From: Nitrospirota bacterium
GTDB taxonomy: Bacteria; Nitrospirota; Thermodesulfovibrionia; UBA6902
Assembly: GCA_016213945.1 (NCBI GenBank)
Contig: JACQZF010000002.1
Coordinates: 12,675 to 76,674 of the forward strand
Length of the DNA: 64,000 nt
Direction of reading: 5' to 3'
Shown: piece by piece, positions 48,001 through 57,000 of the stretch
Layout of the letters: each line of letters opens with the position of its first letter
Position numbering within the stretch: the stretch's first letter is position 1
Position numbers: made by a program

Positions 48001-51000
48001 CTATCCCCATTGCGCCACCGCTACCAACTCCGCCATTTGTTACAATTGCTGTAAACTGGCATGTTGATCCGTCTTCTAAGCTGCCTGTACCTTCAATCGC
48101 TGCGGTGCCTGCAGAAATCGTTGCGGTTGTAATTGACGTACTTACCAAAACCATGCCGTTAAACGAATAGGTCAGCGAACTTGTTCCCAGTGAAGCCTCA
48201 TTAACATTCAATGTCAAATCTGCCCTTACAAGCGGTGGGAAGTTATAACCAGTACCTAAAGCTGTTTTAGACGCGAGTGCGGCTGTAACCTCTGCTCCGG
48301 TTATAGGATCATCAGGAGATCCTAAATTGTTTAAGTGAGCTTGTCCTAAAGGTGTTGGGTCGCTCTTTAATCTGATTGTTACTATTCCATTGGTTATATC
48401 TATATCCAGATTCATATCGTCGACAACTCCATCGAGACCTGAACCATCTGCTTTGTAATTCCCATCTGTAAAAGGATTGATATTAGAAGCATTGTAAGCC
48501 GCAAGTATTGGGGCCAACATAGTTTCGATATCAGTTATAGCCTTATCGAGGTTGGGTTGAGTTATCGAATGGCTGCCTGGGTCGTTATACGCGTCTGCCG
48601 GATTATTCACTCCTGATGCCGCGGCAACTGCCAAATTGGTCAGGGGATTAATATTGCCTATTCCAGAACCCATTGAAACGGAGTAGAGAGTGGTAGTCAC
48701 TCCGCCGACTGTCCGTTCCGCCTTCAGATAAAACGGCGGTGTAAGTCCGGTTACATCGATTGAATAATTCCCATTAGCATCTATTGGATACGGCCCGTGC
48801 TCTGTGCCATTTGCTTCTTTAAGGTATACATTACCGCCGGACATAGGCGCTCCGGTTGCCGCAACGCCTGTGAGGGTTGAAACTGCTACCGGATTGTTAT
48901 TGTTGTCATTAGTGGCAGGTGGGGGTATATTAGCAGTAGTATCACTCTTACCTGTGTCAGATAGATTACTATTGCTTCCGCTGTCACTGCCCCCTCCTCC
49001 ACCGCCACCGCCGCCACACGCAACAAGAGAGAGAGCAAGTAATGCTGCAAATAATACGGATACTAAGTTTTCGAACCACCCGAATTTAATTATTCCTTTT
49101 TTCACGAGACTTCTGTGCCTCCTTTTTTCCTGCGCGTGTCGGACTGCGTTTCCCCAAACTGCCCTGCTGTTTTTTGATTAGAAAATAATCGTAAACAGGA
49201 TTTGATTATTGATTGAGCAAGAAATATGCCCAAAAGGAGAGAGGATGGACCTGGCAACCTTTCCCATTAACAAACAAATAGTTAGAATAAATTCTTGAAA
49301 TTATCAGTCAGATGGGAAAGTGTGCCTCGGCACAGTTTTTATTGTGACAGGCCTGTGCCATGTTACAGTTTGAGGGAAAGCGAAAAGTTTCCGGTATCTA
49401 CTCTAATCAACGTCTTATTTGTTACAATGCTATACAACCAGAATGAAGATAATGTCCGACATCTTTTTTATCAAAAAGGCATTAGCCCTCGCTGCAAAGG
49501 GGAAAGGGCGCACAAGCCCTAACCCGATGGTAGGAGCTGTTGTCGTTAAAGGCGGGAAAATCATTGCCGCTGATTATCACAGAAAGGCAGGCACTCCTCA
49601 TGCTGAAGTTCTTGCGTTAAAAAAGGCCGGGGAAAGGGCCAAGGGGGCGGCGCTTTACATAAATCTTGAACCCTGCTGCCACACTGATAAAAGGACCCCG
49701 CCCTGCATAAAAACGATTATCCAGGCCGGGATCAGGAAAGTTGTCGTTGCAATGATTGACCCGAATCCGAAAGTGTCCGGCATGGGTTTGAAAGAGCTTC
49801 AGAAGGCAGGCATTGAGACCGTGTCAGGCGTTATGGAGGACGAGGCAAAGAGGCTGAATGAGGCCTTCATAAAATACATTACAAAAAAAGGGCCTTTTGT
49901 GGTCCTGAAGATCGCGCAGAGCCTTGACGGCAAGATCGCAACCGACAAAGGCGAGTCCAGATGGATTACCGGTGAAAAGGCAAGAGAGCAAGTCCATAAA
50001 TTGAGAAACGAAGTCGATGCCGTACTCGTTGGGATCGGCACGGTAAAAAAAGATGACCCTTCTCTTGATTGCAGAACCAGGGGAGGAAGAAATCCATTCA
50101 GAATTATCGTTGACAGTAAATTGCAAATACCGCTTGATGCGAAAGTGCTGAAGCATGATGACGGTAAAACAATAATCGCAACAATCCCCCCTCGCCCCCC
50201 TTTTTTAAAGGGGGGGATTATGAACTCCCCCTTTGAAAAAGGGGGATGCAGGGGGATTTTTTCAAAAAAAGCATGGACAGATTATCAGAAAAAGATTAAT
50301 CTGCTGACTGACATGGGCGTTCGTGTTTTGACTGTCAAAGAAAATGCCGGGAAGGTTGATCTGAAAACTCTCATGAAAGAATTAGGCAGGCTCGATATTA
50401 CAAGCGTAATGATAGAAGGAGGCTCCTCAATAAACGCCTCGGCGCTTTCAAGCGGGATAGTGGACAAGGTGATGATCTTTTCCGCTCCCAAAATAATCGG
50501 CGGCGTTGATTCAATCCCCTCGATAGGCGGCAAGTCTCCGGCCCTCCTGAAAAACGCGTTCAATTTTAAAAATCTCCAGGTGAAAAAAGTCGGCGAAGAT
50601 GTTCTGCTGGAAGGGTATCTTTGATTACTCCGTCTTTAAATCCTTTCTAAGTCTCCTGTCCGCCTTGATGACCTCCTCAACGTCGTCCCCGCTGATCTCC
50701 CACGAATAATCATCCTGCGAATTTCGCCTGAGCTTTATCTTCGCCGGTTTATCGGGTCTTATCTCCTGTATTTCCTGCACTTGCTTGAAGACGGGTTCTT
50801 CCTGTCTGCCTCCGGAATCAGTGCAGGCTTGTGCAGAGAATAATAAAATGATGATAAATAGAATAGAAAATAATTTAAGTGCTGACATGTCCCCTCCTAA
50901 AAACTCTTAAACCTGTTCGTAATCGGAAAGCGCCTGTCTTTTCCAAAGGCCCTCGGGGTTATTTTTATTCCCGGCGGGGCCTGCCGCCTTTTGTATTCCG

Positions 51001-54000: not shown

Positions 54001-57000
54001 CATTTCACCTGACGGCTATATTTTGACAAATACCCACGTCGTTAAAGACGCTGACAAAATAAAAGTCGTCATGTCCGACAAGAAAGAGTTTATAGGCAAA
54101 GTCATCGGCAATGATCCCAAAACTGAAATATCCGTCATTAAGATTGACGCCAAAGACCTTCCCACCATTTCTGTGGGAGACTCCGACAAATTAAAAGTAG
54201 GTGAATTAGTACTGGCAGTCGGCAATCCATTCGGTTTGAACCAGACGATCACTATGGGAATTGTCAGCGCGGTGGGAAGGGCGAACGTCGGCATCGCGGA
54301 GTATGAAGATTTTATCCAGACGGATGCGGCGATCAATCCCGGCAATTCAGGCGGCGCGCTGGTCAACGTAAAAGGAGAGCTTGTAGGAATTAATACCGCC
54401 ATTTTCAGCACCTCCGGCGGTTATCAGGGAATAGGTTTCGCGATCCCAAGCAACATGGCAAAGATCGTCATGCGCAGCCTCGTTGAAAAAGGAAAAGTTG
54501 TGCGCGGCTGGCTCGGAGTGTCCATACAGGCGATAACTCCGGAATTAGCGCAGCAGTTCGGCCTTAAAAAAGACTACGGGACCCTCGTAGCTGATGTTGT
54601 TGAAGGCAGCCCCGCTGAAAAGGCCGGCCTTATACGCGGCGACGTTATCATCGAAGTTGACGGCAAAGAAGTTACTGAGCCTTTTCAATTGAGAAATATG
54701 GTTGCAGGCATCCCGCCCGGCGAGACCAGGGAAATGAAGATAATACGTGAAGGAGAGATCCAGACGATCAAGGTCACTATCGGCGAGCTTCCGGTTGAAA
54801 CACAGGCCATGCCCTCTGTTTATCAAAACGCCCTCAGGGGGGTGATCGTCCAGAATTTAACGCCTGAGCTCTCCGGCAGGCTTAACCTTCCGGATAAAAT
54901 GCGCGGGGTAATTGTTACCAATATTGAAAGCGGCAGTCCGGCGGAAACAACACTTATTCCGGGTGACATCATCCTTGAGATAAACAGGAAGGCTGTTGCG
55001 AACGTTGAAGATTATAAGGCGTTAGTATCGGAGATAAAACCAACTAAAGATGTCCTGCTCCTCGTATTCCGCAAGGGTTCAACCATCTTTGTGACAATCG
55101 GAGGGGAATGAAGAAGAGGCGCTAAGTTTCAAAGGGACAAAGGCACAAAGTTCGGTGTCATCTCAGCTTTGTGCCTTTGCTCCTTTGTTCCTTTGTGCCT
55201 TCATTAATTACTTCCAGAAGCGGCAGATTAAACTTTTTCGCTATCTTCCTGCAGTCCTCGTATTCAACGGACGCCTTTTGCTTTTTATTTCCAAGTTGTG
55301 AGATCTTGATGTTCACTGTGCCGAACTTAGTTTTGACTGATCTGATTTCCCGCTTGAGGACCCTTCTGTCAGCTCTGTAAAATCTGACGCCGATGCTCGT
55401 GGTCTCATTCAGGACAATGTCGATCAACTGCTCTTTATCACTCTCATTGCAAAGTACGCTCAGCTTAATGCCCGGCCTTCCCTTCTTCATGATGATCTGG
55501 GTCAGAAAGACATCGAGCGCACCGGCCTTAAACAACCTCTCCATCACATATTCATAAACCTGCGGATTCATATCATCGATATTGGTCTCGATGACTGTTA
55601 TATTTTCATCTGAAAATCCCCCTGCATCCCCCTTTTTCAAAGAGGGACTCATAATATTCCCCTCTTTGGCAAAGAGGGGTGAGGGGAGATTTTTCACATT
55701 CTTTCCCACCATCATCGTTAGCACATTCGGCTGTCCTTTGAATTCCTTCCCGCCGGCTCCTGTGCCTGTTTTTGAAATATTCATTTGCGGGATTCGTCCG
55801 AATCCTTTCGCGAGTGATGAGATCAGCACCGCGCCGGTGGGAGTAGTGAGTTCAAATAAAACATCCGATGAATAAACAGGTTTGCCTTTCAGCAACTCAA
55901 CCGTTGCAGGAGCGGGTACAGGCAGGATGCCGTGCTCTGTCTTGATCGTGCCGCTTCCAAGATTTAAAGGAGAAGAATACACTTCGTCAACTCCCAGGAT
56001 ATCAAGTCCTATCAGACACCCGAAGATATCAACAATACAGTCCACTGCCCCGAGTTCATGCAGATGCACATCCTGTATCCTCTCCCCATGTACCCTGGCC
56101 TCCGCCTCAAACAGCCTTTTGAAAATCAACAGCCCCTTCTGTTTTATTCCCGCTGACAGTTTAGATGTTGTTATTATCTTTTCAATATCTTTCCATCTTC
56201 TGACTTCTGACCTCTGACTTCTGACTTCTGACTTTATTACAACATCCACCTTCGTCGCCCTGACCCCTGCCCTCTTCACTTTTTTCGCTTTCAGTTCATA
56301 TCCGCGCACTGGCAGTTTGGAGAGTTCTTTTTTTAATTTCTCAAGCGGAACACCGGCGTCAACAAGCGCGCCAAGGACCATGTCCCCGCTTATGCCTGAT
56401 GTACAGTTGAAATATGCGATCATATTTTTAGCTGAAAGCTGATAGCTGTTAGCTATTAGCTGTATTTATCTTATGCGCAAGCACCCCTGCGCCAAAACCA
56501 TTGTCGATATTCATCACCGCGATGCCGGGCACACAGGAATTGAGCATTGCAAAAAGGGCGGTGATCCCTCCAAAACTCGTGCCGTAACCGACAGACGTTG
56601 GAACGGCGATCACCGGTTTGTCCGTCATCCCGCCGACAACGGACGGGAGCGCGCCTTCCATTCCCGCGACAACAACCATTACCCGCGCTTCCTTCATGAT
56701 ATTCCTGCTGCCCATTAATCTGTGAAGCCCCGCGACTCCGACGTCATATACCGTGTCTACTTTGCTGCCTAAAAATGACGCGGTTACCGCAGCCTCCTCA
56801 GCTACAGAAATATCGGATGTCCCGGCCGTGAGAATAAGAACATCCCCTTTTTTTCGCTTTTCCTCACCGATCGAGATCATGCCGGAGGCGGGATGAAAAA
56901 CAGCGTTCTTTATCTTTAGAGAGTTGTAAATTTTCTCTGTCGCCTTTGAAATAAGGAACCGTTTGCTCTTCCTGAACATGACTTCCGCTATCTTAATTAC

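What the first reader, a model, noticed from the sequence alone, without database searches (positions are those of the whole stretch)
50184..55695. RPE-like palindromic element inserted in-frame into two essential-type genes (ribD and larC)
An ~85-bp element with two G/C-capped hairpins (CCCCCCTTTTTTAAAGGGGGGG; TCCCCCTTTGAAAAAGGGGGA; then TGCAGGGGGATTTT) occurs at 50184-50270 inside ribD, in a loop of the reductase domain. A reverse-complement copy sits at 55613-55695 inside larC. Both reading frames stay open, adding ~28-30 aa. This mirrors Rickettsia palindromic elements that colonise coding sequences. It shows that this genome's repeat families are active and tolerated inside proteins.
Basis: seen in the sequence. 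Interest (0 to 1): 0.6.

Follow-up and report, generated by a model that had tools for sequence, protein, structure and literature searches.

The report
Palindromic repeat inserted in-frame in two genes
Two enzyme genes (ribD and larC) of an uncultured Nitrospirae bacterium each carry, in-frame, an ~80-base palindromic repeat from a short-repeat family found across many bacterial phyla; it encodes a floppy extra loop, a known kind of event (as in Rickettsia) but from a family I found no name for.

Summary
An ~80-nt element lies at 50183-50262 in ribD, and a reverse-complement copy lies at 55613-55694 in larC. Their right halves match at 34/35 nt; none is expected by chance.

Each element is two inverted ~35-nt units: a tag AAATC-CCCCT followed by the hairpin CCCYCTTT-loop-AAAGRGGG. 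Each folds into one long hairpin (-54 and -46 kcal/mol). PDB homologues and many orthologues lack the segments. AlphaFold2 predicts both as disordered loops.

The unit belongs to a very widespread family. The scans hit their 120-stretch limit in genomes of many phyla and in viral contigs. The tag was not in the search pattern but is about 90% conserved. Other copies sit in-frame inside RecJ, PurL, CbiG and histidine kinase genes.

Both insertions are old and shared with relatives, so they do not show current activity. The larC copy is conserved at synonymous sites (21-23 of 21-24 codons identical against about 50% outside). In sister lineages the same two loops hold other repeat families.

It works like Rickettsia RPEs and intragenic REP dimers but belongs to neither family. 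How it moves is not known.

The parts
49452..50624 (+). ribD host gene (bifunctional deaminase/reductase, 390 aa; identical to NCBI MBI4847075.1)
   Evidence: ORF list. Pfam dCMP_cyt_deam_1 + RibD_C. PDB 2b3z E=2e-80. 100% match to P0001.
50183..50262 (+). Palindromic element in ribD: a dimer of two inverted units, translated as IPPRPPFLKGGIMNSPFEKGGCRGIF
   Evidence: Folds as one hairpin, -54.3 kcal/mol, z=-5.95. Corresponds to coil 245-271 with pLDDT<50 at 252-266 in the AF2 model. Absent from the ribD of L123 and L124 and from PDB homologues.
50183..50215 (+). ribD left unit: tag AATCCCCCCT, spacer CG, hairpin CCCCCCTTT-TTT-AAAGGGGGG
   Evidence: Pattern hit at 50188-50214 (+). nhmmer hit at 50183-50215, E=5e-9.
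50226..50262 (-). ribD right unit (inverted): AAAAAATCCCCCT-GCA-TCCCCCTTT-TTC-AAAGGGGGA
   Evidence: Pattern hit at 50227-50254 (-). nhmmer hit at 50226-50259, E=4e-9.
55158..56423 (-). larC host gene (nickel-pincer cofactor nickel-insertion protein, 421 aa), next to larB at 56449-57189
   Evidence: ORF list. Pfam Ni_insertion E=5e-144, and AIRC for the neighbour. PDB 12bi E=2e-88. P0121 is named LarC [Nitrospirae bacterium] by NCBI.
55613..55694 (-). Palindromic element in larC, in the same orientation relative to the coding strand as in ribD. Translated as KNLPSPLFAKEGNIMSPSLKKGDAGGFS
   Evidence: Folds as one hairpin, -45.9 kcal/mol, z=-5.93. Corresponds to coil 243-274 with pLDDT<50 at 246-269, between the two domains. 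Absent from the larC of L001 and L249.
55658..55694 (-). larC left unit (first in coding direction): AAAAATCTCCCCT-CA-CCCCTCTTT-GCC-AAAGAGGGG
   Evidence: Identical over 42 nt to the L123 orthologue.
55613..55647 (+). larC right unit (second in coding direction). 34/35 identical to the ribD right unit
   Evidence: Differs by 1 nt from the ribD unit of the same genome but by 4-6 nt from larC orthologues.

Best explanation
Each copy is a dimer of two inverted ~35-nt units. A unit is a 5' tag AAA(A/T)(T/C)C-CCCCT, then 2-5 nt, then a G/C-capped hairpin CCCYCTTT-loop-AAAGRGGG. The units belong to a family of short dispersed palindromic repeats found in many bacterial phyla, in phage contigs and on plasmids.

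Shown: an ancestor of this Nitrospirae (Thermodesulfovibrionia-like) lineage acquired one dimer in a surface loop of RibD and another in the interdomain linker of LarC. Both kept the reading frame and are predicted to encode Pro/Gly-rich disordered loops. The host genes stayed under purifying selection.

Inferred: such insertions survive only where length and frame are compatible and the protein tolerates a floppy loop. That would explain why the same two loops are colonised again and again by different repeat families in sister lineages.

Shown but unexplained: the larC element is conserved at the nucleotide level far beyond the gene's synonymous sites. My preferred reading is homogenisation against other genomic copies (gene conversion), possibly with selection on the DNA or RNA hairpin.

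Inferred, weakest step: spread resembles that of REP/REPIN elements. That is, a single-stranded hairpin is handled in trans by a host-encoded enzyme, without an evident target-site duplication. A Y1 HUH transposase of the RAYT/TIRYT kind is one candidate, and one such gene lies at 4529-5464. No link between that gene and this family was found.

The confidence of 0.8 applies to the identity of the element and to the in-frame, ancient insertion. For the proposed REP-like route of spread alone I would give about 0.3.
For: Real repeat:
- 34/35 nt shared between the two genes, and 4 unit hits against 0 expected.

A family, not chance:
- The genome scan and the viral scan each stopped at their limit of 120 stretches.
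- In 161 genome units and 147 viral units, the six bases upstream of the pattern read AAA(A/T)(T/C)C at up to 84-94%, although they were not part of the search pattern. Conservation stops sharply at position -7.
- Copies also occur on Acinetobacter plasmids.

Insertion rather than native sequence:
- Absent from PDB RibD and LarC, from most of 120 orthologues of each gene, and from the syntenic relatives L123 and L124 (ribD) and L001 and L249 (larC).
- The same DNA is read in different frames in the two genes.

Tolerated loops:
- AF2 coil with pLDDT<50 for both segments.

Host genes under selection:
- About 78-80% aa identity against 47-50% third-position identity in ribD.

Generality:
- 35 of 173 units lie in long open frames.
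- Pfam confirms real hosts with domains on both sides: radical SAM, CbiG, RecJ, PurL, RlpA and histidine kinase.
- The usual reading is PP(F/L)xKGGxGG(F/I).

Nucleotide-level constraint:
- The larC element is 88-93% identical between lineages, against 70-72% for the rest of the gene.
- At conserved residues, 21-23 codons are identical and 0-5 differ inside the element, against about 50-60% identical outside. Fisher p = 5e-7 to 4e-3.

Hint of conversion:
- The larC right unit is 1 nt from the ribD unit of the same genome but 4-6 nt from its orthologues.
- The closest relative, L246 (RibD 86% identical), carries a different single unit at the same ribD site.

REPIN-like fold:
- -54 and -46 kcal/mol, z about -6.
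Against: - No mobilising enzyme is linked to the family. The only Y1 transposase gene in the window is flanked by unrelated 27-nt inverted repeats, and no such gene lies near units in the 120 genome loci.
- No filled/empty pair close enough to fix the element ends or a target-site duplication was found. The elements measure 80 and 82 nt, not multiples of 3, so the true ends are uncertain.
- The unit lacks the GTAG/CGTC tag of classical REPs.
- Its intergenic copies show no bias towards gene 3' ends.
- Both insertions are old, so nothing here shows movement in this genome.
- The ribD element is conserved only about as much as the gene average (65-81%), and it has decayed in L001. Nucleotide-level maintenance is therefore not general.
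- Copy number in the source genome is unknown, because only 64 kb was available.
Confidence: 0.8

Rival explanations
1. A functional structured element kept inside the genes. The long hairpin, as mRNA or as DNA, would be selected for a role such as slowing the ribosome at the LarC domain boundary, acting as an RNase III or decay site that sets expression, or binding a nucleoid or regulatory protein. It would then be more than a tolerated passenger. This does not exclude a mobile origin.
For: - The larC element keeps its synonymous sites across four lineages and is 88-93% identical against 70-72% for the rest of the gene.
- In ribD, stems are kept while loops vary between the window and L125.
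- The hairpins are very stable.
- The larC copy sits exactly between the two domains.
- Aklujkar et al. 2009 proposed similar multicopy sequences in Geobacter metallireducens as binding sites for global regulators (PMC2700814).
Against: - The ribD copy has decayed in L001: stems are broken and the frame is kept.
- Many orthologues do without the element or carry unrelated repeats at the same place.
- The right larC unit carries a stem mismatch (CCCAC) that is conserved in three lineages, so the small hairpin is not what is preserved.
- Intergenic copies show no positional or orientation bias relative to genes.
Confidence: 0.2
2. A classical MITE: a deletion derivative of a DDE-type insertion sequence. 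It would move by cut-and-paste through its terminal inverted repeats (AAAATCCCCCT...AGGGGGATTTT) and make target-site duplications.
For: - The element has inverted ends and is about 80 nt long.
- The family is on plasmids and phage contigs, which would allow horizontal spread.
Against: - Most family members (139 of 161) are single units with one tag and one hairpin and no closing arm.
- Pairs occur convergent and divergent, with variable spacing. This is how REP/BIME elements behave, not MITEs.
- No direct repeat flanking the dimers was apparent on inspecting the printed flanks.
- I noticed no pair of units 1-2 kb apart that would bracket a full-length parent element (positions), but this was not checked systematically.
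Confidence: 0.1
3. Native low-complexity linkers that arose in place by slippage or selection for Pro/Gly-rich loops. The similarity between the two genes would be convergent.
For: Both sites are variable-length loops in the protein families.
Against: - 34/35 nt identity between unrelated genes, read in different frames.
- Palindromic DNA with z about -6.
- The same unit, with an unselected conserved tag, occurs in intergenic DNA of many phyla.
Confidence: 0.03
4. An assembly or binning artefact of a metagenome-assembled genome.
For: Repeats often break or confuse assemblies. Many family hits lie at contig ends (43 of 163 units at edges).
Against: The same insertions, at the same codons, appear in independent assemblies from NCBI, JGI and Logan. 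Both ORFs are intact and collinear with their homologues.
Confidence: 0.01

Closest known systems
Rickettsia palindromic elements (RPEs; Ogata et al. 2000, as summarised in PMC10969869 and PMC3733652)
   Same: Short palindromic dispersed repeats found in-frame inside unrelated housekeeping genes. They add a peptide segment compatible with the fold, and are also found between genes.
   Different: The host phylum is different (Nitrospirae, and for the family dozens of phyla). The element is about 80 nt, against about 100-150 nt. PMC3733652 equates intragenic CGTC-tagged REPs in R. conorii with RPE-4 and RPE-6; this unit has no such tag. The peptide is predicted disordered and Pro/Gly-rich.
REP / BIME / REPIN elements mobilised by RAYTs, including the intragenic REP dimers described by Di Nocera et al. 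2013 (PMC3733652)
   Same: A unit is a conserved 5' tag plus an imperfect ~20-nt hairpin. Units occur singly or in inverted pairs that fold into one long hairpin. That paper reports intragenic dimers encoding 20-30 aa in several species, which is exactly the size seen here.
   Different: The tag is AAATC-CCCCT, not GTAG or CGTC. There is no bias towards gene 3' ends. No RAYT flanked by these units was found. A true GTAG REP (GTAGGGGCGTATTGCAATACGCCCCTAC) occupies the same larC linker in relative L249, which shows that the two families are distinct.
[quoted passage not shown] 2009, PMC2700814)
   Same: C-rich pentanucleotide motifs (CCYTC) repeated on one strand and inverted on the other. [quoted passage not shown] That genome also has multicopy sequences inside genes, and hepta- and octanucleotide arrays like those in this window.
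   Different: The published class 4 sequences (CCCTCACCC...CCCTCTCCCC-loop-GGGAGAGGG) lack the TTT/AAA stem base and the AAATC tag. A unit of that type lies separately at window 22510-22547. It is a sister architecture, not the same family.
MITEs that make in-frame fusions (intragenic ERIC, Anabaena MITEs; review PMC10969869)
   Same: Small non-autonomous repeats that can be read through inside genes.
   Different: No target-site duplication or parent insertion sequence is seen. Most family members are single asymmetric units rather than elements bounded by terminal inverted repeats.

Membership tests
Rickettsia palindromic elements (RPE) | Palindromic repeat inserted in-frame in protein-coding genes, leaving the protein apparently functional | tested here: met
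   Open frames, intact domains and purifying selection on the hosts. Disordered loops in the AF2 models.
Rickettsia palindromic elements (RPE) | Sequence similarity to an RPE consensus (RPE-1 to RPE-10) | not tested
   No RPE consensus sequences were available in the tools, so no comparison was made.
Rickettsia palindromic elements (RPE) | CGTC tag, as PMC3733652 reports for the intragenic R. conorii REPs it equates with RPE-4 and RPE-6 | tested here: not met
   The unit tag is AAA(A/T)(T/C)C-CCCCT. There is no CGTC at either end.
REP / REPIN (RAYT-associated) | 20-40 nt imperfect palindrome; inverted doublets fold into a long hairpin | tested here: met
   Unit hairpin CCCYCTTT-loop-AAAGRGGG. 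Dimers fold at -54 and -46 kcal/mol, z about -6.
REP / REPIN (RAYT-associated) | Conserved GTAG (or CGTC) tetranucleotide at one end | tested here: not met
   Position profile of 161 units. The tag is AAATC-CCCCT.
REP / REPIN (RAYT-associated) | Mostly extragenic, concentrated downstream of genes (convergent or unidirectional spacers) | tested here: not met
   Counts: 9 convergent, 15 divergent, 57 unidirectional, with equal distances to the 3' and 5' neighbours and no orientation bias; 38 of 163 lie inside ORFs of at least 120 aa. This rests on rough ORF calling of MAG contigs.
REP / REPIN (RAYT-associated) | Cognate RAYT gene flanked by the same repeats | tested here: not met
   The window's only Y1 transposase gene (4529-5464) is flanked by unrelated GGGGTCAGAC... 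inverted repeats. tblastn finds no such gene near units in loci L003-L122.
REP / REPIN (RAYT-associated) | High copy number within one genome | tested here: inconclusive
   Two dimers in 64 kb, and 1-3 per 10-21 kb in relatives.
MITE (DDE-transposon derivative) | Terminal inverted repeats plus a target-site duplication of fixed length | tested here: inconclusive
   Inverted ends are present. The ends merge into A/T runs, no close filled/empty pair was available, and no flanking direct repeat was apparent on inspecting the printed flanks.
MITE (DDE-transposon derivative) | A full-length parent insertion sequence with the same ends | not tested
   I noticed no unit pair 1-2 kb apart bracketing a transposase (positions), but did not look systematically.
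G. metallireducens class 4 multicopy sites | [quoted passage not shown] | tested here: not met
   The published sequences read CCCTCACCCGCCCTT-CGGGCACCCTCTCCCCCGGGGAGAGGG. The architecture is related but the sequence differs.

The most novel reading that the evidence does not exclude
The AAATC-CCCCT hairpin unit defines a pan-bacterial superfamily of REP-like elements. I found no name or description for it in Rfam or the searchable literature. It is also carried by phages and plasmids. It repeatedly colonises the same permissive loops of conserved proteins and, once inside a gene, is kept at the nucleotide level by conversion from other copies or by selection on the hairpin. On this reading these repeats are a general, ongoing source of new protein linkers and loops well beyond Rickettsia, served by a conserved but still unidentified host or mobile enzyme.
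Probability: 0.3. Interest if true: 0.7.

Novelty: new member of a known kind. Interest (0 to 1): 0.5.

Why it matters
In-frame 'selfish' palindromes in genes are usually presented as a Rickettsia curiosity, with scattered REP cases elsewhere. Here one short unit, nearly identical from Nitrospirae to Pasteurellaceae, cyanobacteria, candidate phyla and phages, is found inside real enzymes.

In this lineage two particular loops (the RibD reductase loop and the LarC interdomain linker) have been filled independently by at least three or four different repeat families. This gives a natural map of insertion-tolerant sites in these proteins. It also gives a concrete system for asking whether such repeats are passengers, regulators or raw material for protein evolution. 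The synonymous-site conservation of the larC copy makes that question testable.

There is a practical side. These repeats produce many spurious 'PPFxKGG' hypothetical proteins, and they inflate loop lengths in metagenomic protein families.

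Tried and rejected
- **Rfam**, E-value mode, 49000-57000: only sub-threshold microRNA-like hits. No family.
- **Literature search for the motif strings**: only chance hits. General searches gave the RPE, REP and MITE background but no description of this family.
- **Preprint 10.64898/2026.09.22.753630**: could not be opened.
- **G. metallireducens class 4**: checked in the supplement. Related architecture, different sequence.
- **Protein search with the two insert peptides joined**: 2 weak hits only.
- **Exhaustive representative search with the 30-aa ribD insert**: 10 hits, most of them short proteins. 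It gave no annotation and no picture of host-protein diversity.
- **Exact look-up of the window's own LarC and RibD**: not on record, so the rest of the source contig and genome could not be read.
- **Megablast of an oral-phage copy against INPHARED phages**: no match.
- **Terminator reading**: rejected. The T-run is separated from the small hairpin, and intergenic copies show no 3'-end or orientation bias.
- **Link to the TIRYT transposase in the window**: considered, not supported. Its inverted repeats are unrelated and occur only at that gene.
- **Target-site duplications**: could not be assessed, because the element ends merge into A/T runs and the nearest relative is only 86% identical.
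- **Metagenome scan**: not used. The protein database already showed no relative closer than 86%.

Full report
**1. The observation**

Reading the window directly shows an 80-nt element at 50183-50262 on the + strand. An 82-nt element lies at 55613-55694 and is its reverse complement. The two align at 82% identity, and their right halves match at 34 of 35 nt (pair I1). A 26-mer from that half occurs exactly twice in 64 kb, with none in 100 dinucleotide-preserving shuffles.

Each element consists of two inverted units that fit CCCCT-N2-5-CCCYCTTT-N2-7-AAAGRGGG. That pattern hits four times in the window against zero expected. An HMM built from the wider family finds no further copy in the window.

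Both copies lie inside open reading frames:
- ribD, 49452-50624 (+), 390 aa, Pfam dCMP_cyt_deam_1 + RibD_C.
- larC, 55158-56423 (-), 421 aa, Pfam Ni_insertion, next to larB.

The element has the same orientation relative to the coding strand in both genes, but it is read in different frames. The shared 35 nt encode SPFEKGGCRGIF in RibD and SPSLKKGDAGGF in LarC. The similarity is therefore in the DNA, not the protein. Only two of the six frames of each copy are free of stop codons.

**2. It is an insertion into tolerant loops**

Against solved structures, RibD aligns on both sides of a gap. Query residues of about 240-276 face residues 250-258 of Bacillus subtilis RibD (2b3z). This lies between the strand TIIAT and the following helix of the reductase domain. 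LarC has its extra residues in the linker between the N-terminal and C-terminal domains, compared with chain 12bi_D.

AlphaFold2 models built on 81 and 84 homologues support this:
- RibD residues 245-271 are coil, with pLDDT<50 at 252-266. They lie between strand 240-244 and helix 272-287.
- LarC residues 243-274 are coil, with pLDDT<50 at 246-269. They lie between strand 234-242 and strand 275-282.

Most of the 120 closest RibD orthologues are 355-365 aa and go straight from TIIATTxxAD to the helix.

The host genes remain under purifying selection. RibD is 78-80% identical in protein to L001 and L125, but only 47-50% identical at third codon positions.

**3. Age and history**

NCBI names the source as a Nitrospirae bacterium MAG. 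Its relatives are named Thermodesulfovibrionia.

Syntenic loci from independent assemblies show the following:
- The ribD insert is shared by the window, L001 (GCA_020723105.1) and L125 (GCA_016217725.1). It is absent from L123 and L124, whose ribD is 364 and 363 aa.
- The larC insert is shared by the window, L123 (GCA_016207885.1), L124 (a JGI metagenome) and L248. It is absent from L001 and L249.

Both insertions therefore predate the split of lineages that now differ by 20-28% in protein sequence. They show tolerance, not current activity. This also rules out an assembly artefact.

The ribD copy keeps its stems in the window and in L125 while the loops differ. In L001 the stems have decayed but the frame is kept. 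The closest relative found, L246 (RibD 86% identical), has a single unit of a different subtype (CCCCTCTTTGGCAAAGAGGGG) at the same ribD site. So there has been turnover at that site.

**4. Nucleotide-level conservation**

The larC element is 88-93% identical between lineages. The rest of the gene is 70-72% identical, and third positions at conserved four-fold-type residues are 40-47% identical.

Restricting the comparison to codons whose amino acid is conserved sharpens this. Inside the element, 21-23 codons are identical and 0-5 differ. Outside it, about half are identical. One-sided Fisher p values are 5e-7 to 4e-3 over the six pairs. A neutral passenger would not behave this way, and selection on the peptide alone would not fix synonymous sites.

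The ribD element, by contrast, is conserved only about as much as the gene average (65-81%).

There is one hint of exchange within the genome. The window's larC right unit differs by 1 nt from the ribD right unit of the same genome but by 4-6 nt from the larC orthologues. Its left unit differs from the orthologues by only 0-3 nt.

As RNA, each element folds into one long hairpin: -54.3 kcal/mol for ribD and -45.9 kcal/mol for larC, with z about -6.

**5. The family**

The hits include:
- Nitrospirota, Desulfobacterota and Omnitrophota.
- Beta- and Gammaproteobacteria, including cultured Acinetobacter, Glaesserella, Haemophilus, Iodobacter and Pseudoxanthomonas.
- Cyanobacteria (Okeania), Chloroflexi, Ignavibacteria and Chlamydiae.
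- Several candidate-phyla-radiation groups.

A scan of IMG/VR viral contigs also hit its limit. Copies occur on Acinetobacter plasmids as well.

The six bases upstream of the pattern were not part of the search. They still read AAA(A/T)(T/C)C, with individual positions up to 84-94% conserved in 161 genome units and similarly in 147 viral units. Conservation stops sharply at position -7 and shortly after the hairpin. This is a real family with a defined unit: the tag AAATC-CCCCT, a short spacer, then the hairpin.

Most units (139 of 161) are single. Pairs occur convergent, as here, or divergent, with variable spacing. Some form one perfect palindrome.

About a fifth of the units lie in long open frames. 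Pfam confirms real host genes with domains on both sides: a radical SAM protein, CbiG, RecJ (inside the DHH domain), PurL, RlpA, and a histidine kinase (inside HATPase_c), as well as a unit inside a T9SS sorting domain and one downstream of the single domain of a GH3 enzyme. These copies usually read PP(F/L)xKGGxGG(F/I).

Intergenic copies show no preference for gene 3' ends and no orientation bias (rough ORF calling).

Rfam has no matching family. I found no description of this unit in the searchable literature.

**6. Recurrent colonisation of the same loops**

In RibD orthologues the same loop holds different contents:
- PPFxKGG-type units.
- Tandem heptanucleotide arrays, read as NSKFKIQNSK (AATTCAA x4 in L249).
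- GGFQTRPY-type and RRAVPL-type segments.

In LarC orthologues the linker holds:
- The present dimer.
- Heptanucleotide arrays (TCAGAAT in L001).
- A classical GTAG-tagged REP, GTAGGGGCGTATTGCAATACGCCCCTAC, read as GRGVLQYAPT, in L249.
- HSRENGNPEKNKLDSCFRRND segments. From my own recollection these resemble translations of ATTCCCGC...GCGGGAAT palindromes (the Neisseria dRS3 type). I did not check their DNA.

Either these are among the very few sites where an insertion survives, or existing repeats attract further ones. I cannot separate the two.

**7. Mechanism**

Shown:
- The element is a dispersed palindromic repeat.
- It was inserted in-frame.
- It is old.
- It lies in predicted disordered loops.
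- The larC copy is constrained at the DNA level.

Inferred:
- The survivors passed a filter for frame, length and structural tolerance.
- The sequence is maintained by conversion against other copies, by selection on the hairpin, or by both.

Weakest step: how the family spreads. The unit plan (tag plus hairpin, single or in inverted doublets, no visible target-site duplication) is that of REP/BIME/REPIN elements. These are thought to be handled as single-stranded hairpins by Y1 HUH transposases (RAYTs) (PMC3116915, PMC3733652, PMC6006769).

The window does encode such a protein at 4529-5464. It matches NCBIfam REP_Tyr_transpos at 73.7 bits, just under the cut-off of 80. Its L125 homologue scores 86.2 and has a DnaA_C-like tail. 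However, the gene is flanked by its own 27-nt inverted repeats beginning GGGGTCAG. That makes it a TIRYT/'TIRtron' as described in PMC3733652 and PMC6006769. Those repeats occur nowhere else in the window, so no link to the family is established.

**8. Comparison with what is known**

It behaves like Rickettsia RPEs (PMC10969869). It also behaves like the intragenic REP dimers encoding 20-30 aa that Di Nocera et al. reported in several species (PMC3733652).

It fails the membership tests for classical REPs: the tag, the 3'-end bias and a flanking RAYT. It has no CGTC tag, which PMC3733652 reports for the intragenic R. conorii REPs it equates with RPE-4 and RPE-6.

The 'class 4' multicopy sites of Geobacter metallireducens share the architecture but not the sequence. 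That paper's hepta- and octanucleotide classes resemble the arrays seen elsewhere in this window.

**9. Verdict**

It is a new member of a known kind. What goes beyond the known picture is the cross-phylum reach of the unit, the repeated colonisation of the same loops, and the synonymous-site conservation of the larC copy.

Interest is 0.5.

Noticed in passing
window 4515-5515 (gene 4529-5464, minus strand): A Y1 HUH transposase of the RAYT/TIRYT type: 311 aa, NCBIfam REP_Tyr_transpos 73.7 bits against a cut-off of 80. Its homologue in L125 has a DnaA_C-like tail. The gene is bracketed by 27-nt inverted repeats, GGGGTCAGACTTGCCTATTGACATTTG, which fit the published TIRYT motif GGGGWSAS. These repeats occur nowhere else in the window.
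   Followed up: partly
window 56197-56234 (inside larC, aa 64-76): A tandem heptanucleotide array, CTTCTGA x5.4, at 93% matches. It is translated as KSEVRSQRSEVRR in a loop that is shorter in PDB LarC. It fits the MTYCTGA 'class 3' repeats of Geobacter metallireducens. This is a second repeat family inside the same gene.
   Followed up: partly
window 55105-55202 (3' end of larC and the spacer to the upstream gene): An inverted pair of octanucleotide arrays, CAAAGGCA x2.6 and CTTTGTGC x4.4. The second array supplies the last ~11 codons of LarC (KEQRSKGTKLR). Relative L001 lacks this tail.
   Followed up: partly
window 29758-29865, 36786-36872, 37214-37295, 58234-58308, 63271-63314: More inverted pairs of 8-nt periodic arrays (CACAGAGG / CTTTGTGC / TCTCAACT types). 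They resemble the paired 'class 1/2' sites of G. metallireducens.
   Followed up: no
window 23092, 24580, 25699, 25761, 60103, 60137, 60996; also 22479-22504: A family of ~25-nt palindromes, TGTCATTCCGG/CCGC...GGAATGACA. From memory they resemble the Neisseria dRS3-type ATTCCC-N8-GGGAAT repeat. The peptide this type would encode, HSRE(N/S)GNPE...SCFRRND, appears in the LarC linker of other Nitrospirae orthologues.
   Followed up: no
window 24254-24274 and 63958-63978; window 22510-22547: Sister hairpin units with other tags. CCCCTCTTGATAGAGGGGAAT is preceded by ACACCCCTGCA. A CCCTCACCCTAACCCTCTCCC-GCAA-GGGGCGAGGG unit is of the G. metallireducens class 4 type.
   Followed up: no
L249:14862-16055 (larC) and L249:10001-11125 (ribD); L001:15243-16373: In relatives the same two loops hold other repeats. 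L249 larC has a true GTAG-tagged REP (GTAGGGGCGTATTGCAATACGCCCCTAC) plus GTCAGCG heptamers. L249 ribD has AATTCAA x4. L001 larC has TCAGAAT heptamers.
   Followed up: partly
L126-L245 (IMG/VR viral contigs), e.g. L141 7926-9920 and L149 7221-9149; L250 1201-1290 (Acinetobacter plasmid): The same unit occurs in phage contigs. In L141, L149 and similar contigs it comes as two or three same-strand copies about 1 kb apart, each embedded in a longer conserved palindrome (tttacagcccatt...aagtgggctg). It also occurs just after a stop codon on Acinetobacter plasmids.
   Followed up: partly
window 56428-56463: A heptanucleotide array, TTAGCTG x5.1, spanning the larB stop and the larB-larC junction.
   Followed up: no
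window 47579-49105 (minus strand): A 508-aa ORF with a long Gly run near its N-terminus and two internal ~160-nt direct repeats (47671-47829 and 48016-48174, 72% identical). It lies immediately upstream of ribD.
   Followed up: no
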